DNA from: Candidatus Omnitrophica bacterium UBA6253 | GTDB lineage: Bacteria; Omnitrophota; Gorgyraeia; Gygaellales; Profunditerraquicolaceae | Direction: 5' to 3' | Length of the DNA stretch: 64,000 bases | Assembly (NCBI GenBank): GCA_002441245.1 | Contig: DJVP01000012.1 | Coordinates: 116,547-180,546 of the forward strand | In this document: positions 2,217 through 49,014 of the stretch, one piece after another | Layout: every line of letters begins with the position of its first letter | How positions within the stretch are numbered: position 1 is the first letter of the stretch | Notes under the pieces: generated by a model | Seen by the model: the letters and a program-made list of their open reading frames with translations, nothing else | What the model was told of the DNA's origin: nothing | Database searches by the model: none | Position numbers and translations under genes: made by a program

Positions 2217-2217
2217 A

Positions 2218-35618: not shown

Positions 35619-36734
35619 TTACGCTGGCTCTCCCGGCCGGATTCTTTTCTCTAAACATTCTTTATAAACCTTTTCTGTCGCATCAACCATTTTCTCTTTA
35701 GAAAAATTATCCATAATGAATTTACGGGCGCTAGTTGCCAAATTATCGCGCATTTGCTTATCAGTCAAAAGGCGCATAATCGCCCCCGCTAAAGATACCG
35801 GGTCAGCAGGCTCAACTAATAATCCGTTTTGCCCGTCTTTAATCAGGGTTTTTATCCCCCCCACTGCCGAACCTACAACTGCCAACCCCTGCGCCATTGC
35901 TTCCATAAGCGCTAAGCCTAAACCCTCCTGCAATGAAGGCATAACAAAGATATCCAGTGCCGCAAGCACATTTTTAGTTCCTTCAGCTTGCGGTAAGAAT
36001 AAAACACTATTTTTGATAGCTAGATCATCCGCTTCTTCAACCAGCACATCCTTCATTTTACCTTCGCCGACAACAACCAATTTCACTGAAGGAAAGTTCT
36101 TGATAATAATCTGCATGGCCTTAAAAAGATAAATATGCCCTTTCACGTCAGATAAACGGGCAACAATCCCCACTAAAGGGGCATCTTCTATGCCTAAAGA
36201 TTCCCTGAAACTTTGCCTGCCTGAAAAATCACCGAAACTTTGCAGATCTATACCGTTATTTATTACTTTAATTTTGTTTTCATCCAGATTAAAATCAAGA
36301 ATCAGATGTTCCTTTACCTGCTGGCTTATAGCAATAATAGCATTATCCCAACAAGGAAAAAACAAGCGGGATAGCTTTGGTTTAAAAAAACCATGGCAGG
36401 TAAATATATGCGGTTTACGGCAATAACGACTCAATAAACTCCCCAAAACCTGAGTAGTTCGGCTGTTTGAATGTATCAAATCAATATTAAGCCGCTTGAT
36501 TTCTTTTCTGAGCCTTAAAAAACTGATAATGATCTTCGGGCTGACCTCTTTTTTCGTGCATAAAGGAACCCGTATGTTCTTTATGCCTGCTGCCGTGAAC
36601 TTTCCTAAGAGTCCGCCTCCTCCGGAAGCCAGGTAAACACTATGGCCATTTTCTTTAAGTCCGGAGGCTAGAGTAAACAGATAGCTGGAAATTCCCCCTA
36701 CATTAAGATGGTTAGCTATAAACAATATATTCAT
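35619..36734 (-). CDS. Glycosyltransferase family 4 (GT-B, group 1)
   Basis: MNILFIANHLNVGGISSY N-terminus and C-terminal E-x7-E-like GT4 region. Confidence 0.8.
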   Translation of the reverse strand: MNILFIANHLNVGGISSYLFTLASGLKENGHSVYLASGGGGLLGKFTAAGIKNIRVPLCTKKEVSPKIIISFLRLRKEIKRLNIDLIHSNSRTTQVLGSLLSRYCRKPHIFTCHGFFKPKLSRLFFPCWDNAIIAISQQVKEHLILDFNLDENKIKVINNGIDLQSFGDFSGRQSFRESLGIEDAPLVGIVARLSDVKGHIYLFKAMQIIIKNFPSVKLVVVGEGKMKDVLVEEADDLAIKNSVLFLPQAEGTKNVLAALDIFVMPSLQEGLGLALMEAMAQGLAVVGSAVGGIKTLIKDGQNGLLVEPADPVSLAGAIMRLLTDKQMRDNLATSARKFIMDNFSKEKMVDATEKVYKECLEKRIRPGEPA

Positions 36735-38824
36735 TATAATAATTTATCTATTGCCGCAAGCACTTCCTCAGGAGTAATCTGCCTCATACAGTGCTTGGTT
36801 CGACATTTAGTTTTATAACAAGGCTGGCAATCCAGATTTTTATTAATCACAATGCAGTTCTTTCCTGGCGGAAGATGGCGGCGCGCATCAGTAGGCCCAA
36901 AGAGCGCGATAAAAGGAGTCCTTACCGCGGATGCGATATGCAAAGGCGAAGAATCTGCTGAAATAAACACATTGCATTTCTTGATCAGGGCAGCCAACTC
37001 ATTTACACTGGTTTTACCGCAGGCATTAATAATTTTGGTACCCTTAAGTGAATTTACGAGCATGTCAGCATAGACTAAATCCTGGGCAGTACCGGTAATC
37101 ACTACGCGTATATCGCGCAACCCCAAATCTTCACAAAGACGCATCAGGTATTGCTGCGGCCAAAGTTTGGTACTCCATCTCCTGGAAGCGCTAATATTGA
37201 TCCCCACTATTTTCTGAGCCTCGCTCAGCCATTGGGCGTTTAAAAGCTCATCCACGCGCTTTATATCTTCAGGAGACGGCCAAAGCTCAAGCGAATTATT
37301 CAAAAGGTCAATACCGAGCATTTTTAATATGCGAAACTGGTGCGTTACCGGGTCGATAAGCGGTTTTCCATCTTTAATGCGGTGCTGAAGCAAAAAAGAA
37401 AGCTTTTTGTTATCATAACCGTAGCAATTAACGCAGCCGCTCAGGTAAGAAAGTATATGGCTGGACCGGCTGTTCTGCAGGTCTATAACAATATCAAAAT
37501 TCTTTTTCCTTAAGACGCCTCCTATGCCCAATAACCCCTTTAGCCCCTTATCATTATTTTTCAAATCACACACCAATAGCTCATCTATATAAGGGCTTCT
37601 TAGCAATACATCTTTTGATTCCTCTCCGGTCAAAAAGCTTATCTTATAATTTGCTTGGGAAAATTTCTCCCAAACCGCCCTTAATGCAGCCGTGGAAAGG
37701 ATTATATCCCCTAGAGAGCTGAGCTTAATTATCAGAATCTTAAAATTACTCAAGGCATCACGGTAAACATCCAAGGTATTCTTAACCATCAACTCCACCG
37801 TATATTTTTCTTTAATCTTAACGTAGGCATTCTCTGCCAAATTCTGTGCTAATTGCGTATTTTCATAAATACGCAGTATAGCATCGGCCATGCTTTTATG
37901 ATCTGCTGGAGGAACTAATAGACCGTTTTTGCCATCTTCAATGATATCAATTACCCCGCCTACCTTAGTAGCTACCACCGGTACGCCGGAGGCTTGGGCC
38001 TCAACCACTACCCGGCCAAATGCCTCATGTGTTGTCGTAGCCAAAACCACCAGGTCCAGATGCGCCAGTATCCCAGGGATATCACGCTGTGTTCCTAAGA
38101 ATTCTGTGCAATGCCATAGACCAAGCCGTCGTACTAACACCTGTACTTCCTCCTTATACGCCTCCTTTGATGCCGGGGCATCCCCCACTATCCATATTTT
38201 TAACCGTGGTACAGTCCTTGAGATACGCGCCATAGCCTTAATAAAATGCAGGTGGCCTTTTAGAGGAGTGATCCTGCCGATAATCCCTACGTTAAACTCC
38301 TCTTTTCTCTTTGACTTAGGGTCAAGGTATTTAAACCTTTCCATATCCACGCTGCGCGGAACAAGCCTGATACGCTCATGAGGCACTGCAAAGTCTTCAA
38401 TCATATGCCGGGCAATCACGTTGCTTAAAACAATCACTCTCTTAGCCCAACCCATTACTAAACTAAAAAGATGCTTCTTATAGTAGCCATGACAAGTAGT
38501 TATAAATACGGCCTTGGTCCTACGGCAGGCAAAATAAGCAATCCATGCCGGCACGCGCGAACGGGCATGAACGATATCAATCTCCTCCTGTTTGATTATC
38601 CCTACTAGAATAGGGATTAATTTATATATAGAAAAAATTGATTTTTTATGTACTGCTAATGTGTAATGTTTGGCGCCGCATGCTTCAAGCTCTCCGACCA
38701 GGGCTCCGCCGGCAGAAACCACTACTACTTTATGCCCCAGGCGCACCAGATACTTGGACAAATCCAAGGTACCGGTCTCAACCCCGCCTACATTAAGTTC
38801 AGGCAATATTTGCAGTATCTTCAT
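36734..38824 (-). CDS. Fusion protein: GT4 glycosyltransferase (N-terminal) + GT9 heptosyltransferase (C-terminal)
   Basis: N-terminus ILQILPELNVGGVE (GT4), then from about residue 360 FKILIIKLSSLGDIILSTAALRAV (GT9). 696 aa. Confidence 0.75.
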   Translation of the reverse strand: MKILQILPELNVGGVETGTLDLSKYLVRLGHKVVVVSAGGALVGELEACGAKHYTLAVHKKSIFSIYKLIPILVGIIKQEEIDIVHARSRVPAWIAYFACRRTKAVFITTCHGYYKKHLFSLVMGWAKRVIVLSNVIARHMIEDFAVPHERIRLVPRSVDMERFKYLDPKSKRKEEFNVGIIGRITPLKGHLHFIKAMARISRTVPRLKIWIVGDAPASKEAYKEEVQVLVRRLGLWHCTEFLGTQRDIPGILAHLDLVVLATTTHEAFGRVVVEAQASGVPVVATKVGGVIDIIEDGKNGLLVPPADHKSMADAILRIYENTQLAQNLAENAYVKIKEKYTVELMVKNTLDVYRDALSNFKILIIKLSSLGDIILSTAALRAVWEKFSQANYKISFLTGEESKDVLLRSPYIDELLVCDLKNNDKGLKGLLGIGGVLRKKNFDIVIDLQNSRSSHILSYLSGCVNCYGYDNKKLSFLLQHRIKDGKPLIDPVTHQFRILKMLGIDLLNNSLELWPSPEDIKRVDELLNAQWLSEAQKIVGINISASRRWSTKLWPQQYLMRLCEDLGLRDIRVVITGTAQDLVYADMLVNSLKGTKIINACGKTSVNELAALIKKCNVFISADSSPLHIASAVRTPFIALFGPTDARRHLPPGKNCIVINKNLDCQPCYKTKCRTKHCMRQITPEEVLAAIDKLL

Positions 38825-40770
38825 AGTATTTTATCTAACCCTGCGCTTACCCGTAAGTTATCTTCAGGAAAACTTACCCTGGGATGATTCTGTAATATTT
38901 CTCTAATGAAGCCGGAGATTTCTTTAATTTGCTTTAAATATATATATCTTTTATCCTGATAATTTTTTAGAAAGCGTTGATGCTTCTTGCTAAGGCCGGC
39001 GGCCTTAAATACCACAACATATCTTTCTGCCATAACCGCCTCAGAGATCATCGATATACTCTCCGGCGAACTTATAATTATACTGCTTAAGCCTAATATG
39101 CCGCCAACTGCATCAGGATGGTTGTTTTCATTGGCAATAATTAAAAGCTTACAGCGCAAATAAGCCTCAAATTCTTTTTTAAGCACCTGCTCCACTTCCG
39201 GCGGCGTACGGCGGGAGGTAGAAAGAAGAATATCCGCGTTCAACTCTTCGGCAGATTGTTTAATTTGACCAATCAATCCTGTTATCGCCTGACGGCTAAT
39301 AGCAAACCCTTTACTATCGCCTCCAATTAATATGCCAATACAAGGATTAAGCAAAGGGCCTTTTAAGAGGCCGGACTTCTGCAATCTCCCTGATTTTTCT
39401 TTTAAATAATCCCCGTCAATTAAATTAAGCGCCCCCTCGGTCATTACCACATTTTTCTTATTTTGTGGCCTGTCATGCCGGGGGATAATCGCCAGATCAA
39501 ACTTTTTCAGGCTTAAGACAGCCGGCCGCATTACAATAACTGACTTGGCCTGGTTTGCTTTAGCCAATATATAATTTACAGCGCTCAATTTATCTCCCGC
39601 AGAAATAATAATATCGGGCTTAAGGTTGATTAAACCCTGCCAACTTTCACTGGTTAAGGCATAATGCAAATAACACAGGCAGCGATGGCATTGATACCTG
39701 CCGTTAAAAACAGCCATCCAGTTAAATATAACCCTGAACAGGCAGCTACGGAATTTCACCTCACAGATAGATAATGTAGATTTTATTCCCCGCCCTGATA
39801 ATTGCCGATTGACCAATTTAGCTACGCTTTCAGACTGATGGAGGTGGCCTGCCTTTCCATCGGAAAGGATCAATACCTCTTTCTCTTTACCGTATTTCCA
39901 GATTTTATAAGTCCAGAGATACTCATAGGGGTATTGCTGGATATACTTCTCATAAATATCAGCCAACCTCTGCAGGTTGTCATGCAGGTCATTTTGTGCG
40001 TCACCGCTTTTGGTTGCCACATAAACCTGGTCCAGAATAACTTTAGTATGAGGACCTTTTACGCGCGTATAAAAAACAGGGATTATGGAACAGCCGTATT
40101 TCAAAGCCAGCTTCACCGCTCCGGTAGACATAGAGGCGGATTTACCAAAAAACCTTACGATCTCCCCCTTTTTGCCGCCCTGATCAGTAGTCATCCCGAT
40201 TGACTGGTTATTTTTAAGGACATCAATCAACTCCCGCAATCCCCCTTGCTTATGGATAAGCTTTGCCCCTTGTTTAAGCCTATAGGTATTAAGCAGGTCA
40301 TTTAACCGCGGGAATCCCTGATCTCGCACAAATAATATAAAAGGGAACCCGAGGTTTGCGCAGATGATATTGGAAAGTTCCCAGTTACCTTCATGTGCGA
40401 TAAGAAAAATTACCCCTTTGCCTCTTTTAAAAGCCTCGCCAATATAATGCCTGTTTTCAATATGGATATACTTTTCAAGATACCTCTTATTTATACGCGG
40501 GATAAAAGAAATCTCTATAAGGTTCTGGCCGAATGCCTGATAAACCTTGCGGGTTATCTTTGCGGCTAACCGAAAGTCTTTATTTATTGTCACGGCCTTC
40601 TTGATATTCGCGTAAGCGACCGCGCGATGCCGGGAATCAAAAAAATAGATAACGTCCCCCAGCCTCCTGCCCAAAAACAGGCTTGCGTTCAAAGGCAGCA
40701 AGAAAGTAAACAGGCTGGCGGCCTTAAAGAGAATACAGCTTAAGTAATCGGCGATCAAATTCTGCTTCAT
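38821..40770 (-). CDS. Fusion protein: LpxL/HtrB-type lipid A late acyltransferase (N-terminal) + ELM1-like GT-B domain (C-terminal)
   Basis: N-terminal half resembles lauroyl/myristoyl acyltransferases (about 290 aa). C-terminal half begins LILSDGKAGHLHQSESVAKL, like the ELM1-family N-terminus. Confidence 0.6.
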   Translation of the reverse strand: MKQNLIADYLSCILFKAASLFTFLLPLNASLFLGRRLGDVIYFFDSRHRAVAYANIKKAVTINKDFRLAAKITRKVYQAFGQNLIEISFIPRINKRYLEKYIHIENRHYIGEAFKRGKGVIFLIAHEGNWELSNIICANLGFPFILFVRDQGFPRLNDLLNTYRLKQGAKLIHKQGGLRELIDVLKNNQSIGMTTDQGGKKGEIVRFFGKSASMSTGAVKLALKYGCSIIPVFYTRVKGPHTKVILDQVYVATKSGDAQNDLHDNLQRLADIYEKYIQQYPYEYLWTYKIWKYGKEKEVLILSDGKAGHLHQSESVAKLVNRQLSGRGIKSTLSICEVKFRSCLFRVIFNWMAVFNGRYQCHRCLCYLHYALTSESWQGLINLKPDIIISAGDKLSAVNYILAKANQAKSVIVMRPAVLSLKKFDLAIIPRHDRPQNKKNVVMTEGALNLIDGDYLKEKSGRLQKSGLLKGPLLNPCIGILIGGDSKGFAISRQAITGLIGQIKQSAEELNADILLSTSRRTPPEVEQVLKKEFEAYLRCKLLIIANENNHPDAVGGILGLSSIIISSPESISMISEAVMAERYVVVFKAAGLSKKHQRFLKNYQDKRYIYLKQIKEISGFIREILQNHPRVSFPEDNLRVSAGLDKIL

Positions 40771-41785
40771 TCTTAGTTATGACCAGTTTAATATTCAAAG
40801 AGAATATGCCCGGATAGGTAAATTTAAGCCTGGAAATCTTCACGGCATCTTTTTCGGTTGTGATAATCGTATCTAAATTCCTGTCTCTGGCGCATTTAAT
40901 AATACCATCTAAGTCTGCCTGCGCATAATCGTGATGATCAATAAATCTCAAGGCCTCTGCGATATTAATTCCTAAAGAAGAAACCGTGTTCTCGAAGGCC
41001 CGCGGGTTGCCTATAGCTGAAAAAACTACCGCGGATTTTCCGTTAAAACTATCTGGGCTTAAAATTTCATCCGGAGCATGCAGATTACCAAAACCCTCAG
41101 GCCTATGCCTTGACTCTACAATAAGAGCCCGGGAATTTAACTGTCTTAATCTTGCCGTCAGGCCAGCGGTATCCTGGCCAGGATAAACTTGAGTCAAAAC
41201 AAATATATCTGCCCTGCTCAACGCAATCAACGGCTCACGTAAAAAACCCGCCGGAAGCAAACGAAGATTACCAAAAGGATTGCAGGCATCGATAGTTACA
41301 ATCTCCAGATCTTTAAATATACGCCACTGCTGCATACCATCATCAAGAATCAGGATATTTGCAGCATGATCCTTGATTGCCCTGGCTGCCCCTTTTAACC
41401 TGTCTTTATCGACAATAACAGGAGTTTGCGGCAGCTTTTTTTGTAACATAGCCGGTTCATCTCCCATACCTTGCTCCCCGGAAAGTTTTATATCTCTTTT
41501 ATAGCCCCGGGTAAGCACCGCTATCTTATTGCCTTTCTGGCTTAGTTTAACAACCAAATATTCTACAAGGCTGGTCTTGCCTGTGCCGCCTAGAGTAATG
41601 TTTCCTACGCTGATTAACGTACAATTAACCCGTGCCGGCCGAAACCTATGGAAACCCGCCGCAATAACCACAGCCAATCCATAAACCAAAGACAACATAA
41701 AAAGCAGGCCTCTTAAACACGCTGCCAACGGGCCTTTTATCTTGCAGGTAACTAAGTTATAAAGGTAGTCCTTTGGTAAAAGCAT
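40724..41785 (-). CDS. lpxK: Tetraacyldisaccharide 4'-kinase
   Basis: LISVGNITLGGTGKTSLVEYLV P-loop and TRGYKR motif. Confidence 0.85.
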   Translation of the reverse strand: MLLPKDYLYNLVTCKIKGPLAACLRGLLFMLSLVYGLAVVIAAGFHRFRPARVNCTLISVGNITLGGTGKTSLVEYLVVKLSQKGNKIAVLTRGYKRDIKLSGEQGMGDEPAMLQKKLPQTPVIVDKDRLKGAARAIKDHAANILILDDGMQQWRIFKDLEIVTIDACNPFGNLRLLPAGFLREPLIALSRADIFVLTQVYPGQDTAGLTARLRQLNSRALIVESRHRPEGFGNLHAPDEILSPDSFNGKSAVVFSAIGNPRAFENTVSSLGINIAEALRFIDHHDYAQADLDGIIKCARDRNLDTIITTEKDAVKISRLKFTYPGIFSLNIKLVITKNEAEFDRRLLKLYSL

Positions 41786-41794
41786 AGCAAAAAT

Positions 41795-42067
41795 TTAAAT
41801 CGCCTTAAAAAACATTAAAAACCCGATGATTATAAACAGTGCTGCTCCGATATAGCGAATCAACTCTGGCCTGATGAACTTAGCCAAAAGCGCCCCCAGA
41901 AAAACCGAAATCACCGTAACAATAACATAAGCCGATACCGAACCTAACCATACAGAAATTGGCTTACCAGTCTTAGCCGCCATGCCAATGCCAACCAACT
42001 GGGTTTTATCCGCCAACTCCGCGAAGAATACAGCGCCAAAAGTAGCCAAAAAAACCTTCCAATCCAT
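41795..42067 (-). CDS. UPF0016 (GDT1/TMEM165-like) single-repeat membrane protein
   Basis: AELADKTQL (E-x-G-D-K-T motif variant) and 3 TM segments. 90 aa. Confidence 0.6.
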   Translation of the reverse strand: MDWKVFLATFGAVFFAELADKTQLVGIGMAAKTGKPISVWLGSVSAYVIVTVISVFLGALLAKFIRPELIRYIGAALFIIIGFLMFFKAI

Positions 42068-42181
42068 CTTCCTGCTCCTCTCTATGATAAGGTTGCTTTA
42101 AATATTTATGATATCACATAAGGTGCCTTCAGGCAAATAGTTTAAAGGATTAAAACGCAAGAATACCAATAGGATATGTAA

Positions 42182-42838
42182 TTAAAGCAGGATGTAACCG
42201 GAGATCTGTTTTAACTGATTTACTACGATATCGGCGTCAGCCAAATACTCCTTGGGTAAACTGGTAGAAACAGCAATACAGGACATCCCGGCCTTCTTAG
42301 CCGAGATAATGCCAAATGGCGCATTTTCTATAACCAGGCAATATTCTGGCCTAAGCCCCAATAGCCCGGCTGCCCTGAGATACGGCTCAGGATGAGGTTT
42401 GCCATTCTTAACCTGGTTACCGGCTACTATAACATCAAAAAGCTTGCGCATTTTAACAGGTAAAATCCTTTTTATCTCATTGAGCGGGCTGCCCGTAACC
42501 AACCCTAGCATAAAACCCTCATCTTTTAATTCAACCAGAAGCTCGCAAGCTCCATGGAAGATATGCCGCTTAAAATAACGTTTAAATATCTTCTGGCGCA
42601 GCTTAAATATAGCCTTCAAAATCTTCTTTGACGGCTTAATCTTCTCGCGTTTTAACAGGCCTTTTAAGGTAGTTTCCCATCGTTCACCTTCTTGTGCGTA
42701 AACCTCAAAACAACTTACCCGCACGCCCCACGGCCGCAAGGCCTCATACCAAGCAATAAAATGATATGGCATAGAATCGACAATTACTCCATCCATATCA
42801 AAAATAATTGCCCGTGGCCTTATTTTTAGCTTTTTCAT
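42182..42838 (-). CDS. HAD-IA family hydrolase (beta-phosphoglucomutase-like phosphatase)
   Basis: IIFDMDGVIVDS motif I, plus motifs II-IV. Confidence 0.75.
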   Translation of the reverse strand: MKKLKIRPRAIIFDMDGVIVDSMPYHFIAWYEALRPWGVRVSCFEVYAQEGERWETTLKGLLKREKIKPSKKILKAIFKLRQKIFKRYFKRHIFHGACELLVELKDEGFMLGLVTGSPLNEIKRILPVKMRKLFDVIVAGNQVKNGKPHPEPYLRAAGLLGLRPEYCLVIENAPFGIISAKKAGMSCIAVSTSLPKEYLADADIVVNQLKQISGYILL

Positions 42839-42848
42839 ATTTTAATAA

Positions 42849-43571
42849 TTAATCAGATGACATAAAGGAAAGATTGCGTTCGATGAAATCAATCAATTCC
42901 TGCTGAATATCAGCCGAGATATTGCGGAATTCCACGCCGAAACCCGGATACTCATGGGGCTGGACTTCTTTATCCGGGACCCACACAACAGCTGCCTCAA
43001 TTACAAGTTCTTCTTTCTTTGGCGCCAGCCTCATCTTAAGTATTACCTCATCCCCCAGCTTAAAATTATCGCAACCGAATATAAAGGCACCCACCGCGCT
43101 CAAATTAAGTATATCAACCTTAAGGCAGCTTGGCGAAGTCGAAGATTTGGATTTTAACTCTACTTTTAAATCAATGGGCAGGCGTTTAAACCTGCGGCGC
43201 AGCTGCATCTTTTTGATATCCTCAATAGCTTTGTCTTCCTTAAAACTATTAACCGCTAAATCCTCCGTGGCATAAACCTCAATAACCCTGTCCATGCCGG
43301 AAACCGCAAATACTCCCCTGAGGTGCGCCGGAATATTTAAAAGCTTCATCCTACCCTTGCTGTTGACCACTTCTTTATAAGCAATAACTACAACCGAGAT
43401 CCCCATATAATCAATACCTTCAATATCCTCCAAATTGCAGAGTATATCCGTATATCCATCACGCAGGCATTGCCCAACCACCTCTACAAGATTAGCGGAA
43501 TTAACGTCTATGCGGCCGGATAAATCCATAATGATTATATAATCTTTCTGCCTTAATTTTATCTCTAGCAT
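42849..43571 (-). CDS. STAS (anti-sigma-factor antagonist-like) - PilZ fusion protein
   Basis: N-terminal STAS-like 110 aa. C-terminal RRRFKR...NLSAVGAFI...GFGVEF matches PilZ RxxxR and (D/N)xSxxG motifs. Confidence 0.6.
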   Translation of the reverse strand: MLEIKLRQKDYIIIMDLSGRIDVNSANLVEVVGQCLRDGYTDILCNLEDIEGIDYMGISVVVIAYKEVVNSKGRMKLLNIPAHLRGVFAVSGMDRVIEVYATEDLAVNSFKEDKAIEDIKKMQLRRRFKRLPIDLKVELKSKSSTSPSCLKVDILNLSAVGAFIFGCDNFKLGDEVILKMRLAPKKEELVIEAAVVWVPDKEVQPHEYPGFGVEFRNISADIQQELIDFIERNLSFMSSD

Positions 43572-43948
43572 GTTAATTTAAATTCAATGGCAGGATTTAA
43601 TTTTAAGGTATTGTGCGCAGGGCAGTTTTTAATAAACTCCAGCAATGCCCTCTGCCTGCGTTCATCGATTGAGCAGGATTTTAAATCTATCTCCACATTG
43701 ATCTGCCTGAAAGATAACGGAGATTCCTTGGAAAGCTCAGCAGAGACATTGATCTTGAAGTTTTCCAGGTTTAACTTTGAGCCTTCGGAGTATTTACGGA
43801 TATATACCCCGATACAACTGCCTAACCCGGTCAGAAGCGCATCCAGCGGGGTTAATCCTTTTCCTTTTGCGTCCACGACAAATTCACTTTCGCCTGATTT
43901 AACGCTAAATGCCAAATCCTGATTATGCACAACTTCTATCTTATACAT
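43565..43948 (-). CDS. OsmC/Ohr-family peroxiredoxin-like protein
   Basis: LLTGLGSC and CPAHNTL conserved Cys motifs. Confidence 0.7.
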   Translation of the reverse strand: MYKIEVVHNQDLAFSVKSGESEFVVDAKGKGLTPLDALLTGLGSCIGVYIRKYSEGSKLNLENFKINVSAELSKESPLSFRQINVEIDLKSCSIDERRQRALLEFIKNCPAHNTLKLNPAIEFKLTC

Positions 43949-44003
43949 TTACACCTCACTTTTTAAACATACTAACATGCCCAGGGATATATTACAAGGT
44001 TAG

Positions 44004-44480
44004 TTAATAAGCCCTGGGCCTTGCCTGTTTCTGCCAAGAATCAAAAAGCTTTATATTTTCTCTTACTAATACTGCCGGAGTAATCCTGATTCTATTTTTT
44101 GCCAACTTCCTTAAATCCAGATTAGAAACAGGCAATTCATTAAAACCATACCTCTTGGCATCTTTGATTGCGCAGCCAAAAACAATGCGCGAGATTCTTG
44201 CCCAATGGCAGGCCGCAAAACACATCGGGCACGGCTCACAAGTAGAATAAATAACGCAACCGGATAAATCAACTCTTTTAAGCCTCTTACATGCCTGCCG
44301 GATTGCCGTTATTTCAGCATGAGCCGTAATATCGGTATTCTTCCAGACAAGATTATGGCTACAGGCAATAACTTTATTGCCTTTTACAATACAAGAGCCA
44401 AAAGGTGCCTGGCCTTTCCTTGCCCCTTGCGCGGCCTTCTCTATGGCAAAACGCATAAATTTTATATCCTGATTTTTCAT
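44004..44480 (-). CDS. CDA-fold deaminase, guanine deaminase (GuaD)/TadA-like
   Basis: TAHAEITAIRQACK...YSTCEPCPMCFAACHWAR closely parallels the B. subtilis GuaD zinc motifs. Confidence 0.7.
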   Translation of the reverse strand: MKNQDIKFMRFAIEKAAQGARKGQAPFGSCIVKGNKVIACSHNLVWKNTDITAHAEITAIRQACKRLKRVDLSGCVIYSTCEPCPMCFAACHWARISRIVFGCAIKDAKRYGFNELPVSNLDLRKLAKNRIRITPAVLVRENIKLFDSWQKQARPRAY

Positions 44481-44487
44481 TAGCCTT

Positions 44488-45399
44488 TCATAATATTTTA
44501 CTCATTAATAACCCTAGTATAAAGGACAAAGAAGTCCCCAGGTTAACCAAAATAGTCATTGCGCACATCTTTTGAAGCAACAGACTGTCCCTATAAGCAC
44601 CCTTGAGCATTAAAGACGCCAATATTACGGCAATAATCAATACCGGAAAATAGAAAAATGCGCTCTCTACAGGGAAACCCTTTGCTAAAGCGATAAAAAA
44701 ACTAACTCCTGCGCAAACAACAAACAACGCATATAGAAAAGCGCCTCTTTCTTTGCCTATGCGTACTAATAAATTATTTTTAGACGCCTCTCTGTCCACC
44801 TGATAATCCGGATATTCATTGATCAATATTATATTTACCACTGCACAGGCAATAGGCAACGATACAAAAACAGCCAAAATATCAAAACTGGAAACTTGAA
44901 TATAAAATGCGGCATTTACAGCCAAAAAACCAAAACTATAAGCAATAAATATCTCGCCTAATCCCCGGCTTACCCAGCGTAGAGGCGGCTTAGAATAGAA
45001 TAACCCGCAGATTACCCCTGAAGCACCCAGCAAAAGAGTCCATTTGCCGGTTTTAAAATAAAACTGCAAGATTGTTCCTATTAAAAAGGCCAGCAGGATA
45101 ACCGCATAAGACAGGACCCCTACCTTGCTTTCGGGAATTAATTTCTTAACCAATACCTGGCTGCCGCCGCTAAATGGGCTTTTTCCTAAAACCGCCGAAA
45201 GACGGTCTTCTTTGATATCGTAAATCTCGCCACTATAATGCGCGGCTAATTGAATAAGGATCGAACCAGCTAAACCCAAGAAAAAAACTGCCGGACTAAA
45301 TTTACCCGTAAGGCGTTGCGCAAGTAATGCGCCCAAAATATATGGCAGGATGACTACGCTTAAAAACGGTATGCGCGAAAGCAAAATCCAATATTTCAT
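44488..45399 (-). CDS. UbiA-superfamily prenyltransferase (MenA-like)
   Basis: Polytopic membrane protein with two Asp-rich motifs (YDIKED and DYQVD). Confidence 0.65.
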   Translation of the reverse strand: MKYWILLSRIPFLSVVILPYILGALLAQRLTGKFSPAVFFLGLAGSILIQLAAHYSGEIYDIKEDRLSAVLGKSPFSGGSQVLVKKLIPESKVGVLSYAVILLAFLIGTILQFYFKTGKWTLLLGASGVICGLFYSKPPLRWVSRGLGEIFIAYSFGFLAVNAAFYIQVSSFDILAVFVSLPIACAVVNIILINEYPDYQVDREASKNNLLVRIGKERGAFLYALFVVCAGVSFFIALAKGFPVESAFFYFPVLIIAVILASLMLKGAYRDSLLLQKMCAMTILVNLGTSLSFILGLLMSKIL

Positions 45400-45404
45400 A
45401 TTTT

Positions 45405-45830
45405 TTATTTTCTTATAAAATCCTGATAAACCGCCAGGATTATCACAATAGCAGAACTGCTGAAAATGAAAAAATAATTTATGGCATCTTTGTTTGAACG
45501 CAGGCGGCAGAGCATTATGCGCAAAAATTCTCTGTCGCCGGCATCTAAAATCTGGCTGTTCGATATCTTCTTATGGATTTGGTATCTTTCCAATTCCTGG
45601 CGCAAGATTTTATCCTGTCTGAATTTATATAGAAAATATAGAAAGAATCCTGCTACACCCAGATACCAGAAAAACTTCGGCCAGAATAATCCAAAGGGCA
45701 AAACAAGATTTACCAGCCTGACAGAGATTGTGGCAATTATTCCGACAAGAAGAAATAGCCAGGAGACAGTAGTGTCCCTGCAACTTGCGGAAGCCTTACA
45801 ATTAATGCATTGCGTTTTAGGTTTAAACAT
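45405..45830 (-). CDS. Hypothetical membrane protein with N-terminal CxxC...C motif
   Basis: CINCKASASC then 3-4 TM segments. No recognisable family. Confidence 0.4.
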   Translation of the reverse strand: MFKPKTQCINCKASASCRDTTVSWLFLLVGIIATISVRLVNLVLPFGLFWPKFFWYLGVAGFFLYFLYKFRQDKILRQELERYQIHKKISNSQILDAGDREFLRIMLCRLRSNKDAINYFFIFSSSAIVIILAVYQDFIRK

Positions 45831-45833
45831 ATA

Positions 45834-46004
45834 TTATTGAGTAAGGTCCTTATTGTTGCTCCTGCGCAAGGCCTTAACCATGCGCTCATAAGCCTCCAGG
45901 GCTGAAGCCCCTTCAGTAAGATGGTCAAAACAAACAGCCGCATACCCCTTACGGTTTTTAATCTTAAAAATCTGCACTTTTAAGTGGCCGATTTTCTCTA
46001 ACAT
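45834..46004 (-). CDS. Candidate small ORF (56 aa) absent from the ORF track
   Basis: ATG...TAA ORF MLEKIGHLKVQIFKIKNRKGYAAVCFDHLTEGASALEAYERMVKALRRSNNKDLTQ fills a 190-bp same-strand gap. Plausible beta-alpha-beta composition. Confidence 0.3.
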   Translation of the reverse strand: MLEKIGHLKVQIFKIKNRKGYAAVCFDHLTEGASALEAYERMVKALRRSNNKDLTQ

Positions 46005-46017
46005 TTTATATTAAGGA

Positions 46018-46767
46018 TTAACTAACTTCAATGGCTGCGCGAGCATCAAATGGATTAGTGCGCATAGCCAAAGAAAATAAATACGGATAATCTGCCTTAA
46101 GATGTTTCATGTAAGAGACCCATTGCATTATAAGCAGCCGATAAGAACGCTTCAAGTCATTGGAGAGATGCTCATAATCCTTCTGGGTAAGATTTTTTAA
46201 ATCCACACGGCCTTCCAACTCTTCAGTAAGATGGAATACCGCCCAGAGCAAATCAGTAAATGACTCATGTTCCAGAAGATTCTGGTTTTCCAGCAGGCCA
46301 AGCATAAAATTACGCTTTTTAATCAAGAAATCTTTTAATCCCTGCAGGTCGCCTTTTTTATAATCAATTTTATAATCATAGTTTCCAAGGTCCTTCTCCA
46401 AACGGTTAAACTCAGATGCTGCCCATTCTGAGCGTACGCTTAATTTATCAGATATAGAGCACCCCTGCATGTCAAAAACTATGCAGAATTTAAGCAGCTC
46501 CTTGCCTACTTCACTAAAAAATACACCAATGACCATATTCATTTTCTTAAATAAAGCCTGTTTCTCCCGATAAGTCAAAAGGTTATGCATCACCAGCGTA
46601 ACTAGAAAAACCTCCAGAAACACAAAACCGATATCCCCAATAAGATAGATAAATATGTGCCGTGCGTCCCGAAAAATCAAGAAGTGGATATAGTAAACCG
46701 ATGCTGAGAGTATAATTAAAACAACCCCCAAGATAACCTGCCAGTTAAATATCTTATTAAGCACCAT
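46018..46767 (-). CDS. Hypothetical membrane-anchored protein (2 N-terminal TM + cytoplasmic domain)
   Basis: ORF only. No motifs recognised. Confidence 0.4.
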   Translation of the reverse strand: MVLNKIFNWQVILGVVLIILSASVYYIHFLIFRDARHIFIYLIGDIGFVFLEVFLVTLVMHNLLTYREKQALFKKMNMVIGVFFSEVGKELLKFCIVFDMQGCSISDKLSVRSEWAASEFNRLEKDLGNYDYKIDYKKGDLQGLKDFLIKKRNFMLGLLENQNLLEHESFTDLLWAVFHLTEELEGRVDLKNLTQKDYEHLSNDLKRSYRLLIMQWVSYMKHLKADYPYLFSLAMRTNPFDARAAIEVS

Positions 46768-46770
46768 AAC

Positions 46771-47214
46771 TTATTCTCCTATATCCTCATTCCATAAATT
46801 AGGTTTGCGCTTAATAAACTGCCGCATTAATTGTTTGCAATCAGCCGAATCTAAATTGACGATCTTCACTCCCCTTCTTCTGGCATAGCTTTCCGGACCT
46901 TTAAAAGTTTGATTTTCCCCGATTACCACCTTAGGTATCTTATAAAGCAGTATCGCGCCCATACACATATCACAGGGAGAAAGCGTGGAATAAATAATAC
47001 ACTTTTTATAATCTGCGCTTTTTAACCTGCCGGCATTCTCCAGACAATCCATCTCGGCGTGCAAAACCGCCGAACTCTTTTGTATGCGCCTGTTATGGCC
47101 CCTTGCTATAATTAACCCATCCTTAACCAATACCGCACCTATAGGAATTCCTTGTTCGGCTAAACTTTTTTTAGCTTCTTTAATCGCCTCCTGCATAAAC
47201 TTTTCCATAAGCAC
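46771..47214 (-). CDS. CDA-fold deaminase, yeast Fcy1-type cytosine deaminase-like
   Basis: GHNRRIQKSSAVLHAE...YSTLSPCDMCMGAILLYKIPKVVIGEN...WNEDIGE parallels yeast cytosine deaminase along its length. Confidence 0.7.
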   Translation of the reverse strand: MLMEKFMQEAIKEAKKSLAEQGIPIGAVLVKDGLIIARGHNRRIQKSSAVLHAEMDCLENAGRLKSADYKKCIIYSTLSPCDMCMGAILLYKIPKVVIGENQTFKGPESYARRRGVKIVNLDSADCKQLMRQFIKRKPNLWNEDIGE

Positions 47215-47685
47215 CTATCGCGATATCTTGATTATTTTATATTTAAGCAGCCCTGCTGGAACCCTTATCTCCACAACTTCGTTTTCTTTATGCCCCAGTA
47301 AGCCTTCACCCACCGGAGAACTCACTGAAATCTTGTTCTGGTTATAATCCGCCTCAAGCTCCGAAACCAATACATATTCCATCTCTTCTTCCGTATCCAT
47401 ATCTATCAGTTTTACTCTGGCACCGATTAAAACTTGATCCTGGGGTATATCTTTATCAAGTATGCGCACCCGGGAAAGCTTCTCCTCTAATTCAACGATC
47501 TGCTTTTCATTATGCCCCTGGGCATCCTTAGCCGCGTCATACTCGGCATTCTCGCTGATATCGCCATGCGCCCGGGCCTCGCCTACTGCCTTAGAAAGCT
47601 GCCGGCGTTTAACCGTCTTCAAATATTCCAGATCGCTAACTAATTTCTCATAGCCTTCCTGGGTTAGATAGATATCCCCTGACAT
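47215..47685 (-). CDS. greA: Transcription elongation factor GreA
   Basis: LTQEGYEKL...GDISENAEYDAAKD motifs. Start chosen at MSGDIYLTQ; the ORF could extend to 47715. Confidence 0.85.
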   Translation of the reverse strand: MSGDIYLTQEGYEKLVSDLEYLKTVKRRQLSKAVGEARAHGDISENAEYDAAKDAQGHNEKQIVELEEKLSRVRILDKDIPQDQVLIGARVKLIDMDTEEEMEYVLVSELEADYNQNKISVSSPVGEGLLGHKENEVVEIRVPAGLLKYKIIKISR

Positions 47686-47742
47686 ATTTGGCTCCTTTAC
47701 CCTGCAAAAGGGCATACCGGCCGCTTCCTTCCGGGCCGGATG

Positions 47743-49014
47743 TCAATCAATTAACAACTGTTTGATAGCCTCAATATTCTTTTTGGTCGCACCCCTGTTA
47801 CTGATAATCAATTCATAAGCGTGTTCAACCAATTGCTCAGCCGACAGATCACTAGATAATATTTCTTTTGTTTTACTGGCCAACTCTCGTGAATCACACA
47901 CCATAACAGCAGCCTTATTCTTCAAAAACAATTTGCTAATATCCCGGAAGTTAAACATATGAGGACCAAAGATCACCGGCTTTTTTTGACTTGCCGGTTC
48001 AAGGATATTGTGGCCGCCGGTCTTAACCAGGCTACCTCCGACAAAAACAATATCCGCAGCAGCATAATAGTTAAGCAGCTCCCCCATAACATCAAGAATA
48101 AACACAGGATTATTAATATGGACAGGAGATGCCCCGGATATGCTTGAAATAAAAACCGGCATAAAATCCTGCTGCGAAATTAATCTTCCGACATCCCCGC
48201 AGCGTTCCGGATGCCGCGGGACAAGCAGTAATTTTAACTTTGGGAAAGTAAATAAAAGTTCTTTGTAGGCCTCAATAATTATCTCTTCTTCTCCGGGGTG
48301 CGTACTGCCGCAAACCCATAACTTATCATCTAAATCCAGCCAAAGCTTATTGCGGATAAAAAAAGGATCAAATCCTGCTATTGCCTCTAAATTAATGTCA
48401 AACTTGACATTTCCTGTAACCTGGACGTTCCCTTTATCTACTCCCAAATCTGCTAATCGCAAGGCATCAGTTTCCGTTTGCACGCAGAACTTACCAACCT
48501 TCCTTAAAATCGGCCGGATAAGCAATCTTATCGCGCGGTAGCCGGAATAAGAATTATCGGATATCCTGCCATTAACCGTAATTATCGGAATCTTCTGTTT
48601 ATACAGACAATTAATTAAGTTCGGCCAAATTTCTGTTTCAGCAATAATAAACAGACAGGGGTTAATCTTCTTTATTACCTTCTTAACAATAAAACTCAAA
48701 TCCAAGGGAAGATAAGTCAGGAGGTCGCCATCATTGATTAGCCCCCGGGCGATTTTATTGCCGGTTGCGGTTACAGTGGAAATAACTAATTTCTTATGCG
48801 GATAGGCCTTTCTTAATTCACCGACCAACCCCTTTATGGAAACAGCCTCTCCTACGCTTACCGCATGTATCCAAATCGGCTTATCCAGGTTTAAATTATC
48901 CGGCAAAAACCCGAAACGCCTGAAGAACCCATAATGGAACTTACCCTTAAGTAAATATACCGGCAGATAAATTAATACGAAAATTAAAATTATTAAATCA
49001 TAAAGCAGGAACAT
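47743..49014 (-). CDS. waaA: 3-deoxy-D-manno-octulosonic acid (Kdo) transferase
   Basis: IWIHAVSVGEAVSIKGLV N-terminal motif and GT30 fold. Confidence 0.85.
   Translation of the reverse strand: MFLLYDLIILIFVLIYLPVYLLKGKFHYGFFRRFGFLPDNLNLDKPIWIHAVSVGEAVSIKGLVGELRKAYPHKKLVISTVTATGNKIARGLINDGDLLTYLPLDLSFIVKKVIKKINPCLFIIAETEIWPNLINCLYKQKIPIITVNGRISDNSYSGYRAIRLLIRPILRKVGKFCVQTETDALRLADLGVDKGNVQVTGNVKFDINLEAIAGFDPFFIRNKLWLDLDDKLWVCGSTHPGEEEIIIEAYKELLFTFPKLKLLLVPRHPERCGDVGRLISQQDFMPVFISSISGASPVHINNPVFILDVMGELLNYYAAADIVFVGGSLVKTGGHNILEPASQKKPVIFGPHMFNFRDISKLFLKNKAAVMVCDSRELASKTKEILSSDLSAEQLVEHAYELIISNRGATKKNIEAIKQLLID

What the first reader, a model, noticed from the sequence alone, without database searches (positions are those of the whole stretch)
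42849..43948. STAS-PilZ fusion protein overlapping an OsmC-like peroxiredoxin gene
An anti-sigma-antagonist-like STAS domain is fused to a PilZ domain with intact RxxxR and (D/N)xSxxG c-di-GMP-binding motifs. Its stop overlaps the start of an OsmC/Ohr-family gene by 7 nt. This suggests c-di-GMP-gated partner-switching signalling tied to an oxidative or osmotic stress effector. STAS-PilZ architectures are rare and functionally uncharacterised.
Basis: partly seen in the sequence, partly recalled or inferred. Interest (0 to 1): 0.5.

Follow-up and report, generated by a model that had tools for sequence, protein, structure and literature searches.

The report
Omnitrophota STAS-PilZ c-di-GMP receptor gene
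A small, highly conserved protein of the uncultivated phylum Omnitrophota joins an anti-sigma-antagonist-type STAS domain that has lost its phosphorylation site to an intact c-di-GMP-binding PilZ domain; the overlapping OsmC peroxidase gene upstream is an optional passenger, not an obligate partner.

Summary
On the minus strand, a 240-aa STAS+PilZ protein (42849-43571) and a 127-aa OsmC-like protein (43565-43948) overlap by 7 nt (ATGCTAG). The order is the reverse of what was written: OsmC is upstream, and its stop overlaps the STAS-PilZ start.

Both PilZ motifs (R126xxxR130, N156xS158xxG161) pass profile thresholds and are invariant or nearly so across the family.

- **STAS domain:** it has a SpoIIAA/RsbV-type fold, but the phosphorylatable serine is an invariant tyrosine (D54-Y55-x-G57).
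- **Partner-switch genes:** no RsbW/SpoIIAB-like kinase and no PP2C/SpoIIE phosphatase domain appeared in about 82 kb of this contig. No kinase appeared in 672 kb around 50-odd related genes.
- **OsmC link:** OsmC is missing from 17 of 36 orthologous loci. At least six of these keep deletion scars, and one has an 18-codon mini-ORF that preserves the stop/start overlap. The link is therefore expression coupling, not an obligate functional tie.

The family is conserved (64-93% identity in 38 Omnitrophota MAGs) and, where hits are named, confined to that phylum. In distant members it sits beside GGDEF, HD-GYP-type and PilZ genes, or beside a K+-channel-like gene.

Most likely it is a c-di-GMP receptor in which ligand binding, rather than phosphorylation, sets what the STAS domain binds. 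The partner is unknown.

The parts
42849..43571 (-). STAS-PilZ gene, 240 aa
   Evidence: ORF. Pfam STAS and PilZ hits. All 120 listed homologues carry both domains, nearly all at 239-240 aa. AlphaFold2 model has mean pLDDT 85.6 with two well-folded domains.
43242..43571 (-). STAS domain (residues 1-110), SpoIIAA/RsbV type
   Evidence: The family profile matches PDB anti-sigma F antagonists 1TH8_B and 1TID_B at about 6e-16. Foldseek target-normalised TM is 0.85-0.88 to SpoIIAA (1THN_B, 1TH8_B) and RsbV (6M36_B).
43407..43409 (-). Tyr55 codon (TAT), at the position of the phosphorylatable Ser of SpoIIAA/RsbV
   Evidence: HMMER aligns family 'vDYsGlsv' to 'MDSSGLGV' of 1TH8_B. D54, Y55 and G57 are invariant in 27 sequences, and IDYMGIS is conserved in the 35 full-length locus-derived sequences plus the window. 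The codon was read directly.
43200..43241 (-). Interdomain linker (residues 111-124, end of helix 103-121), the most conserved segment
   Evidence: Mean column conservation is 0.91 here, against 0.79 for each domain. The helix spans 103-121 and is followed by a low-pLDDT loop at 122-126.
43182..43196 (-). RxxxR c-di-GMP motif (R126-R-F-K-R130)
   Evidence: R126 and R130 are invariant. Codons were checked.
42879..43199 (-). PilZ beta-barrel domain (residues 125-231)
   Evidence: Pfam PilZ scores 55.3 bits. Foldseek matches MotI/DgrA 5VX6, MapZ 5XLY, Alg44 4RT0 and YcgR 5Y6G.
43089..43106 (-). (D/N)xSxxG motif (N156-L-S-A-V-G161)
   Evidence: N156 and G161 are invariant and S158 is at least 90% conserved in the 27-sequence alignment. 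L033, which is not in that alignment, has D at 156, still within the (D/N) motif.
43565..43948 (-). OsmC-like gene, 127 aa, upstream of STAS-PilZ and accessory
   Evidence: Pfam OsmC scores 60.4 bits. The closest solved relative is M. pneumoniae OsmC-like 1LQL, with GLxxC and CPAHNTL aligned. Cys45 and Cys109 are invariant in 17 orthologues. The gene is present in 19 of 36 loci.
43565..43571 (-). 7-nt stop/start overlap ATGCTAG (OsmC TAG stop inside STAS-PilZ codons 2-3)
   Evidence: The same overlap occurs in 16 related loci. There is no Shine-Dalgarno sequence before the STAS-PilZ ATG, whereas OsmC has GAGG 5-6 nt before its own ATG.
42182..42838 (-). HAD-IA hydrolase gene directly downstream (10-nt gap); context only
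   Evidence: Pfam HAD_2 at 6.9e-28. Present downstream in 17 of the 38 related loci.
41795..42067 (-). Half-size GDT1/UPF0016 cation/H+ antiporter gene (90 aa), a recurrent neighbour
   Evidence: Pfam GDT1 at 4.5e-23. It lies within about 1.6 kb of STAS-PilZ in about 28 of 35 loci, and directly upstream instead of downstream in L032 and L033.
40724..41785 (-). lpxK, first gene of the lipid A/LPS-core block downstream; context only
   Evidence: Pfam LpxK at 2.5e-76. It lies downstream of STAS-PilZ in most related loci, including those lacking HAD or GDT1 (L023, L036).

Best explanation
The gene encodes a stand-alone cytoplasmic c-di-GMP receptor typical of Candidatus Omnitrophota. A SpoIIAA/RsbV-type STAS domain is joined to a canonical PilZ barrel through a very conserved helix that ends in the RxxxR arginines.

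Shown:
- Both domains are present, and the PilZ ligand motifs are invariant or nearly so.
- The STAS phospho-serine is replaced by an invariant tyrosine.
- The protein evolves more slowly than the LPS enzymes encoded beside it.
- No kinase or phosphatase of the partner-switch type lies nearby.

Inferred:
- c-di-GMP binds the RxxxR loop and the barrel at the domain junction, as it does in the two-domain PilZ proteins YcgR and MotI.
- Binding orders the linker and repositions the STAS domain. This exposes or hides the conserved D54-Y55-x-G57/helix-2 surface, which SpoIIAA uses to contact its partner.
- Ligand binding would thereby replace Ser phosphorylation as the switch.
- The partner is unknown. 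Neighbourhoods suggest an envelope or ion-transport target rather than a sigma factor.

The OsmC-like thiol peroxidase upstream looks intact, but it is an optional gene. Its main conserved relation to STAS-PilZ is translational coupling: STAS-PilZ has no ribosome-binding site of its own and restarts at the OsmC stop.
For: - **Domains and motifs:**
- **Fold:** STAS target-normalised TM is 0.85-0.88 to SpoIIAA and RsbV. PilZ matches c-di-GMP-bound MapZ, Alg44, YcgR and MotI. No solved chain covers both domains (query-normalised TM at most 0.43).
- **Tyr at the phospho-site:**. More remote STAS-PilZ proteins (P0162, P0164, P0223, P0248) and stand-alone STAS hits keep DSxG/SSSG, so Tyr marks this family.
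- **Linker:** it is the most conserved segment (0.91) and is followed by a disordered RxxxR loop in the apo model.
- **Slow evolution:** STAS-PilZ is 64-70% identical where LpxK and LpxL-ELM1 are 45-50% (L022, L029, L030, L033).
- **c-di-GMP genes beside distant members:**. A conserved Omnitrophota REC-GGDEF cyclase family also exists.
- **No RsbW/SpoIIAB-like gene:**
- **OsmC dispensable but coupling kept:** 17 of 36 loci lack it. L009 keeps an 18-codon mini-ORF, MYRIEVVHNQEIEFKLAC, made of the first 11 and last 7 OsmC codons and ending in the same overlap. L012 and L028 have similar mini-ORFs of 15 and 12 codons. Loci with complete loss gained GGAG-type ribosome-binding sites.
Against: - c-di-GMP binding is inferred from motifs and fold only.
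- The relative position of the two domains is not confidently modelled (pTM 0.50).
- No GGDEF, EAL or HD-GYP gene was found in the window or in about 82 kb of its contig, so c-di-GMP synthesis in this particular genome is not shown.
- No conserved neighbour spans the whole family, so the partner is undefined.
- A Ser follows the Tyr in many distant members (DYSG), so some phosphorylation cannot be excluded for them.
- An RsbW-like partner could be encoded elsewhere in the genome.
Confidence: 0.6

Rival explanations
1. This is a classical partner-switching module: the STAS domain antagonises an RsbW/SpoIIAB-type anti-sigma kinase, is reset by a PP2C phosphatase, and is additionally gated by c-di-GMP. 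OsmC is the stress effector it controls.
For: - The STAS domain is closest in sequence and fold to SpoIIAA and RsbV taken from their complexes with anti-sigma kinases, and it passes TIGR00377.
- OsmC is translationally coupled to it in 17 genomes counting the window.
- Sigma-factor genes lie 2-9 kb away in two distant contexts (L053, L039).
Against: - The phospho-Ser is replaced by an invariant Tyr.
- No HATPase-type or PP2C/SpoIIE domain appears in the Pfam tables for about 82 kb of this contig or for the seven distant contexts. No SpoIIAB/RsbW-like sequence was found by tblastn in 672 kb around 54 sequences.
- OsmC has been lost repeatedly while STAS-PilZ stays under strong constraint.
Confidence: 0.1
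2. The target is a membrane ion transporter or channel. STAS-PilZ acts in trans as a c-di-GMP-dependent regulatory subunit, as STAS does in cis in SulP/SLC26 transporters and as MlaB does for MlaF. Here the target would be the GDT1 cation/H+ antiporter. In other lineages it would be a pentapeptide-repeat K+-channel-like protein.
For: - In three distant lineages (28-33% identity; L047, L042/L043, L049) the gene directly precedes, or overlaps, a Pentapeptide+Ion_trans_2 gene, and CorA and CNNM/CorC lie next to it in two of them. On the NJ tree these members fall in separate branches of the family.
- In the window's clade, GDT1 is within about 1.6 kb in about 28 of 35 loci and stays adjacent after a local rearrangement (upstream in L032 and L033).
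Against: - GDT1 is missing from about seven loci that keep STAS-PilZ (L019, L022, L023, L024, L029, L031, L036).
- The channel pairing is absent from L039, L048, L052 and L053 and from this window.
- The STAS domain resembles SpoIIAA rather than transporter STAS or MlaB: none of those passes E <= 0.01.
- Adjacency inside a long syntenic one-strand block is weak evidence.
Confidence: 0.25
3. The target is lipid A/LPS assembly. STAS-PilZ couples c-di-GMP to outer-membrane biogenesis through the lpxK - lpxL-ELM1 - glycosyltransferase genes downstream.
For: - The gene sits inside a 30-kb LPS/outer-membrane cluster: WaaA, LpxK, an LpxL-ELM1 fusion, GT4 and GT9 glycosyltransferases, KdsA/B/C/D, LptC/A/B and AsmA.
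- lpxK follows STAS-PilZ in nearly all 38 loci, even where HAD and GDT1 are absent (L023, L036).
- BacA precedes a 40%-identical member.
- PilZ domains commonly control polysaccharide synthases (established knowledge: BcsA, Alg44).
Against: - The linkage is absent in L024 and L031 and in all distant members.
- Nearly the whole window is transcribed from one strand, so co-orientation carries little information.
- No known LPS enzyme uses a STAS partner.
Confidence: 0.15
4. The PilZ domain does not bind c-di-GMP, like the Xanthomonas PilZ XC1028 type. The protein is a plain adaptor.
For: The best sequence matches for the PilZ part among solved structures are the Xanthomonas 'type IV fimbriae assembly protein' PilZ chains (3CNR and related; 1e-7). 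That XC1028 does not bind c-di-GMP is taken from the reviewer's own knowledge.
Against: - RxxxR and (D/N)xSxxG are complete and conserved down to 26% identity, unlike non-binding PilZ proteins, which lack them.
- The fold matches c-di-GMP-bound MapZ, Alg44 and YcgR.
- GGDEF and HD-GYP-type genes lie next to relatives.
Confidence: 0.08

Closest known systems
SpoIIAA / RsbV anti-sigma factor antagonists (single-domain STAS; PDB 1TH8_B, 1THN_B, 6M36_B)
   Same: Same fold (target-normalised TM 0.85-0.88, 28-30% identity). The conserved D-x-x-G loop sits at the N-terminus of helix 2. The protein passes TIGR00377.
   Different: The phosphorylatable Ser is an invariant Tyr. No cognate kinase or phosphatase gene lies nearby. 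A PilZ domain is fused at the C-terminus.
Two-domain PilZ receptors YcgR and MotI/DgrA (PDB 5Y6F, 5VX6) and single-domain MapZ (5XLY)
   Same: Canonical PilZ barrel with an RxxxR loop at the junction to an N-terminal domain. By analogy, ligand binding at the junction sets how the protein meets its partner (inference).
   Different: The N-terminal domain is STAS, not YcgR_N/PilZN. No flagellar or chemotaxis genes lie in the neighbourhood.
HsbA-HsbD of Pseudomonas aeruginosa (a STAS anti-sigma antagonist that engages a diguanylate cyclase; PMC5085249)
   Same: It links a STAS antagonist to c-di-GMP signalling.
   Different: There the STAS protein is Ser-phosphorylated by HsbR and acts upstream of c-di-GMP synthesis (from the reviewer's own knowledge of that paper; only its listing was retrieved). 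Here the STAS domain is fused to a c-di-GMP receptor and lacks the Ser.
OsmC/Ohr-family thiol peroxidases, closest solved M. pneumoniae MPN625-type (1LQL)
   Same: Both catalytic cysteines (GLGSC45, NC109PAHNTL) align and are invariant.
   Different: It is short (127 aa), does not reach any NCBIfam equivalog cut-off, and is present in only 19 of 36 orthologous loci.

Membership tests
PilZ-domain c-di-GMP receptors (PF07238) | Profile match above the curated threshold | tested here: met
   55.3 bits against 22.5, profile positions 2-101 of 102.
PilZ-domain c-di-GMP receptors (PF07238) | RxxxR motif in the N-terminal loop | tested here: met
   R126 and R130 are invariant in 27 sequences down to 26% identity.
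PilZ-domain c-di-GMP receptors (PF07238) | (D/N)xSxxG motif on the barrel | tested here: met
   N156 and G161 are invariant and S158 is at least 90% conserved. L033 has D at 156.
PilZ-domain c-di-GMP receptors (PF07238) | Six-stranded beta-barrel fold followed by a C-terminal helix | tested here: met
   The AF2 model has strands between 131 and 216 and a helix at 220-237. Foldseek matches MotI, MapZ, Alg44 and YcgR.
PilZ-domain c-di-GMP receptors (PF07238) | Binds c-di-GMP | not testable with these tools
   Needs DRaCALA, ITC or MST on purified protein.
Anti-sigma factor antagonists of partner-switching modules (SpoIIAA/RsbV, TIGR00377) | STAS profile and fold | tested here: met
   PF01740 scores 46.1 against 22.6 and TIGR00377 scores 55.9 against 53.45. 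Target-normalised TM is 0.85-0.88.
Anti-sigma factor antagonists of partner-switching modules (SpoIIAA/RsbV, TIGR00377) | Phosphorylatable Ser/Thr at the start of helix 2 (the D-S-x-G motif) | tested here: not met
   Tyr55 aligns with the first Ser of MDSSGLG in 1TH8_B. It is invariant in the family.
Anti-sigma factor antagonists of partner-switching modules (SpoIIAA/RsbV, TIGR00377) | Cognate anti-sigma kinase (RsbW/SpoIIAB) and PP2C phosphatase encoded in the operon or genome | tested here: inconclusive
   No such domain appears in the Pfam tables for about 82 kb of the contig or for the seven distant contexts. No kinase was found by tblastn in 672 kb around 54 sequences; the phosphatase was not searched by sequence. 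The rest of the genome was not available.
OsmC/Ohr thiol peroxidases (PF02566) | Profile match above threshold | tested here: met
   60.4 bits against 27.5.
OsmC/Ohr thiol peroxidases (PF02566) | Two conserved catalytic cysteines | tested here: met
   Cys45 and Cys109 align with those of 1LQL and are invariant in 17 orthologues.
OsmC/Ohr thiol peroxidases (PF02566) | Hydroperoxide reductase activity | not testable with these tools
   Needs an enzyme assay.
Transporter-associated STAS (SulP/SLC26 C-terminal STAS; MlaB) | Fused to, or encoded with, its transporter (SulP membrane domain, or MlaFED) | tested here: not met
   No SulP or Mla genes appear in the window. MlaB and SLC26 STAS are not recovered by the family profile at E <= 0.01. 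Only neighbourhood hints to GDT1 and Ion_trans_2 exist.

The most novel reading that the evidence does not exclude
In Omnitrophota, a STAS partner-switching domain has been rewired so that c-di-GMP binding to a fused PilZ domain replaces Ser phosphorylation as the switch, and the invariant Tyr locks the domain out of kinase control. Its targets would be membrane ion-transport or envelope proteins (GDT1, a pentapeptide K+-channel-like protein, or LPS enzymes) rather than an anti-sigma factor. That would be a previously undescribed, phylum-wide route from c-di-GMP to ion or envelope homeostasis.
Probability: 0.3. Interest if true: 0.6.

Novelty: new variant of a known kind. Interest (0 to 1): 0.4.

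Why it matters
PilZ receptors are classified by the output domain they carry. A STAS output was not described in any paper found in the searchable library. STAS domains have so far been known to be switched by phosphorylation or by being part of a transporter. A family in which a nucleotide second messenger sets the STAS state, with the phospho-site permanently removed, would add a new input logic to partner switching.

The protein is more conserved than the housekeeping LPS enzymes beside it, across an uncultivated phylum of mostly very small cells. It may therefore be one of the main c-di-GMP effectors there. It is short, soluble and easy to test in vitro. The OsmC deletion scars also give a clear natural example of selection keeping a translational-coupling leader after the upstream gene has been lost.

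Tried and rejected
1. **Literature.** Searches for STAS + PilZ gave only false hits (author names, the lung-cancer term 'STAS'). The Galperin & Chou 2020 PilZ review (PMC6989793) is not held, so I could not check whether the architecture is listed there.
2. **Structure libraries.** The afdb50 fold library was unavailable, so the taxonomic spread of the two-domain fold outside Omnitrophota was not tested by structure.
3. **Cyclase on the same contig.** I compared 'longest contig' sizes between the STAS-PilZ and REC-GGDEF hit lists to place a cyclase in the window's lineage. Only the P0124 lineage matched.
4. **Walking the contig.** Extending about 10 kb past each window end found only housekeeping genes.
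5. **Motif scan.** A scan of all window ORFs for GGDEF, EAL, HD-GYP and the HATPase N-box found nothing relevant.
6. **Promoters and terminators.** The scan gave no more sites than shuffled sequence, so operon limits are not defined.
7. **RNA genes.** Rfam and tRNA scans of the window found nothing, including no c-di-GMP riboswitch.
8. **Base composition.** It is flat (0.38-0.47 GC), so there is no sign of a horizontally acquired island.
9. **Rejected reading: MlaB-like or SulP-like STAS.** Sequence and fold are closest to SpoIIAA and RsbV.
10. **Rejected reading: obligate OsmC partnership.** OsmC has been lost repeatedly.
Full report
**1. What is at the coordinates**

Interval 42849-43948 holds two minus-strand ORFs. 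The 127-aa ORF at 43565-43948 is upstream. The 240-aa ORF at 42849-43571 is downstream.

On the minus strand the junction reads ...AAA TTA ACA TGC TAG for the first gene and ATG CTA GAG ATA for the second. The two share 7 nt, ATGCTAG.

- OsmC has a GAGG ribosome-binding site 5-6 nt before its ATG.
- STAS-PilZ has none (...gaatttaaattaacATG).

This is the usual anatomy of translational coupling by termination and reinitiation (inference).

**2. Domain calls**

| Protein | Model | Score |
|---|---|---|
| 240 aa | Pfam PilZ, residues 125-231 | 55.3 bits, cut-off 22.5 |
| 240 aa | Pfam STAS, residues 4-105 | 46.1 bits, cut-off 22.6 |
| 240 aa | NCBIfam TIGR00377 anti-sigma factor antagonist | 55.9 bits, cut-off 53.45 |
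| 127 aa | Pfam OsmC | 60.4 bits, cut-off 27.5 |

The OsmC-like protein has both catalytic cysteines (GLGSC45 and NC109PAHNTL). They align with the Mycoplasma OsmC-like structure 1LQL and are invariant in 17 orthologues.

The PilZ motifs are LRRRFKR (R126xxxR130) and NLSAVG (N156xS158xxG161).

**3. The organism and the neighbourhood**

The window is identical to part of a 169,648-bp contig assembled from run SRR5323237. The protein's relatives are annotated as Candidatus Omnitrophota.

Almost every gene in the window is on the minus strand. The region is a large outer-membrane and LPS block:
- WaaA, GreA, two cytidine-deaminase-family genes and UbiA upstream.
- Then OsmC, STAS-PilZ, a HAD hydrolase and a 90-aa GDT1 antiporter.
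- Then LpxK, an LpxL-ELM1 fusion, and a GT4-GT9 fusion followed by one GT4 and two GT9 glycosyltransferases.
- Then an ArsR-type regulator, an MMPL transporter, KdsB/A/D/C, LptC/A and LptB.

No GGDEF, EAL, HD-GYP, HATPase-type kinase or PP2C domain appears in the window or in the 10 kb beyond each end. Base composition is flat. There are no Rfam or tRNA hits.

**4. The family**

- The word-indexed search found 947 clusters at E <= 0.001. The best 120 carry both domains, are nearly all 239-240 aa and are 71-100% identical to the query. Where a source names the phylum, it is Omnitrophota.
- A scan of GTDB species genomes found 38 loci at 63-93% identity (64-93% for the full-length matches).
- The exhaustive search of 1.84 billion 50%-identity representatives gave 1853 hits at E <= 0.001, but only 22 at E <= 1e-30. 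About 20 of the listed hits are full-length two-domain proteins at 26-41% identity. The two of these that carry a name are also Omnitrophota.

The architecture is therefore narrow in sequence space and, as far as names exist, specific to one phylum. Within that phylum it is frequent.

In the most diverged orthologous loci it is clearly better conserved than its neighbours: 64-70% identity, against 45-50% for LpxK and LpxL-ELM1 (L022, L029, L030, L033).

**5. The STAS domain is SpoIIAA-like but cannot be phosphorylated on the canonical serine**

A profile of 27 family members matches the anti-sigma F antagonist chains 1TH8_B and 1TID_B at about 6e-16, and RsbV 6M36_B at 3e-12. MlaB and SLC26 STAS do not pass E <= 0.01.

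In that alignment, family 'vDYsGlsv' lies on 'MDSSGLGV'. Tyr55 therefore occupies the place of the first Ser, the phosphorylation site of SpoIIAA (established knowledge). The 1TID and 1TIL chains read MDASGLGV at the same place, which fits an engineered non-phosphorylatable variant (inference).

- D54, Y55 and G57 are invariant in the 27-sequence alignment.
- IDYMGIS is conserved in the 35 full-length locus-derived sequences plus the window.
- More remote STAS-PilZ proteins (P0162, P0164, P0223, P0248) and stand-alone STAS hits keep Ser. Tyr is thus a derived mark of this family.

The AlphaFold2 model (mean pLDDT 85.6) places residue 55 at the start of helix 55-70. Foldseek gives target-normalised TM 0.85-0.88 to SpoIIAA and RsbV taken from their kinase complexes.

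**6. The PilZ domain looks competent to bind its ligand**

R126, R130, N156 and G161 are invariant and S158 is nearly so, down to 26% identity. The barrel matches c-di-GMP-bound MapZ, Alg44 and YcgR, and also MotI.

The stretch linking the domains (residues 111-124, the end of helix 103-121) is the most conserved part of the protein, at 0.91 against 0.79 for each domain. It is followed by a low-confidence loop at 122-126 that begins the arginine motif. This is as expected for an unliganded PilZ.

pTM is only 0.50, so the relative position of the two domains is not predicted. No solved chain covers both domains.

**7. OsmC is optional**

Of 36 assessable orthologous loci:
- 19 have OsmC, and 16 of these show the same 7-nt overlap.
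- 17 lack it, including relatives whose STAS-PilZ is 92%, 88% and 85% identical (L001, L003, L009).

On a neighbour-joining tree the absences are scattered, suggesting roughly eight or more separate losses.

Direct evidence of loss comes from scars:
- L009 keeps an 18-codon ORF, MYRIEVVHNQEIEFKLAC. This is the first 11 and last 7 codons of OsmC, and it still ends in ATGTTAG over the STAS-PilZ start.
- L012 (15 codons) and L028 (12 codons) are similar.
- L001, L025 and L034 keep the 3' tail of OsmC.
- Loci with complete loss carry new GGAG or AGGAG sites 6-10 nt before the ATG.

What is conserved is therefore the means of translating STAS-PilZ, not OsmC itself. No OsmC gene appears in the Pfam tables for the distant family contexts.

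**8. Other neighbours**

Within the window's clade, lpxK follows STAS-PilZ in nearly every locus, with HAD and GDT1 variably in between. GDT1 lies within about 1.6 kb in about 28 of 35 loci. In L032 and L033 it is directly upstream instead of downstream. L024 and L031 have unrelated neighbours.

| Distant member | Context |
|---|---|
| P0133, P0143, P0157 (three lineages) | Gene directly followed or overlapped by a pentapeptide-repeat + Ion_trans_2 (K+-channel-like) gene; CorA and CNNM nearby in two; an HD_5/HD gene follows the channel in one |
| P0135 | Gene follows a REC-GGDEF-MshEN gene by 3 nt |
| P0124 | BacA upstream; REC-GGDEF 6 kb away |
| P0404 | GAF-HD_5 gene and an ECF sigma factor nearby |

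Stand-alone PilZ genes lie nearby in six of the seven distant contexts. A REC-GGDEF cyclase of about 397 aa is itself strongly conserved in the phylum.

No SpoIIAB/RsbW-like sequence was found by tblastn in 672 kb covering all 54 held sequences, whereas a SpoIIAA query found 33 STAS hits.

**9. Mechanism**

*Shown:*
- A SpoIIAA-type STAS domain without its phospho-site.
- A conserved linker that carries the arginine motif.
- A canonical PilZ domain.
- Strong purifying selection.
- c-di-GMP genes next to relatives.
- No partner-switch kinase nearby.

*Inferred:*
- c-di-GMP binds at the junction, as in YcgR and MotI, and reorients the STAS domain.
- Ligand binding, rather than phosphorylation, then decides whether the D-Y-x-G/helix-2 face meets its partner.

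The partner is unknown. My estimates for the rival readings are:

| Reading | Estimate |
|---|---|
| Target is an ion transporter or channel | about 0.25 |
| Target is lipid A/LPS enzymes | about 0.15 |
| Target is an anti-sigma factor encoded elsewhere (classical partner switch) | about 0.1 |
| PilZ domain does not bind c-di-GMP | about 0.08 |

**10. Comparison, novelty and verdict**

The protein works like a PilZ receptor and meets every sequence and fold criterion of that family. It has the fold of an anti-sigma antagonist, but it fails that family's defining phospho-site test. It should not be filed as a classical partner-switch antagonist, although database names say so.

The nearest published link between STAS and c-di-GMP is HsbA-HsbD of Pseudomonas (PMC5085249; listing). 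It is wired differently. No paper describing a STAS-PilZ protein was found. One relevant review could not be read.

I rate it a new variant of a known kind, with interest 0.4. It is a real, conserved and easily testable uncharacterised receptor. The specific story offered, a partner switch tied to an OsmC stress effector, is mostly not borne out.

Noticed in passing
L009:5940-6007; L012, L028, L001, L025, L034 just upstream of the STAS-PilZ start (locus coordinates): Loci that lost OsmC keep scars. L009 has an 18-codon mini-ORF made of the first 11 and last 7 OsmC codons, with the stop/start overlap preserved. L012 and L028 have mini-ORFs of 15 and 12 codons. Loci with complete loss gained GGAG-type ribosome-binding sites. 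This suggests selection to keep translational coupling after gene loss.
   Followed up: partly
L047:8001-10650; L042:9210-11729; L043:4241-6760; L049:7455-9203: In distant Omnitrophota lineages, STAS-PilZ (a tandem pair in L042 and L043) is directly followed or overlapped by a pentapeptide-repeat + Ion_trans_2 K+-channel-like gene and preceded by a 44-47-aa ORF. CorA and two CNNM/CorC genes lie upstream in L042/L043 and L049. An HD_5/HD gene follows the channel in L047.
   Followed up: partly
window 38821-40770 (-) and 36734-38824 (-): Two unusual fusion proteins occur in the LPS cluster. One joins a lipid A acyltransferase (Lip_A_acyltrans) to a Mito_fiss_Elm1 domain (649 aa). The other joins a GT4 glycosyltransferase to a GT9 heptosyltransferase (696 aa). 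Both are conserved in the related loci.
   Followed up: no
window 1-64000: Almost all predicted genes lie on the minus strand, with tight or overlapping junctions. The clear exception is the DEAD/DSHCT helicase at 56596-58485 (+). GC skew is negative across the 10 kb profiled (38000-48000).
   Followed up: no
window 44004-44480 (-), 46771-47214 (-); L050:4579-5040: Three cytidine/deoxycytidylate-deaminase-family (TadA-like) genes lie within about 30 kb of one contig. Two of them flank the UbiA / membrane protein / MJ1433-like segment, whose content varies between related loci.
   Followed up: no
window 951-3480 (-); L051:10001-13792: Two T2SSE-family ATPase genes of about 420 aa flank a class II aminoacyl-tRNA synthetase gene (tRNA-synt_2b + HGTP_anticodon).
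   Followed up: no
L039:16995-18188 and hits P0276-P0395: A REC-GGDEF diguanylate cyclase of about 397 aa is very well conserved. The top 120 hits are 58-100% identical, and those that carry a name are Omnitrophota/Omnitrophica. It may be the cognate c-di-GMP source for the equally conserved STAS-PilZ.
   Followed up: partly
P0178 (563 aa, source taxon unknown): A protein with several tandem STAS-like repeats (HMMER matched three stretches) is followed by a C-terminal segment that resembles an RsbW-type HATPase by eye. It would be an antagonist-kinase fusion. It turned up among weak STAS hits.
   Followed up: no
window 46018-46767 (-) and 45405-45830 (-): The 249-aa MJ1433_N/C-domain protein and the 141-aa membrane protein upstream are present or absent in different related loci. 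Like OsmC, this points to frequent small indels in this otherwise syntenic region.
   Followed up: no
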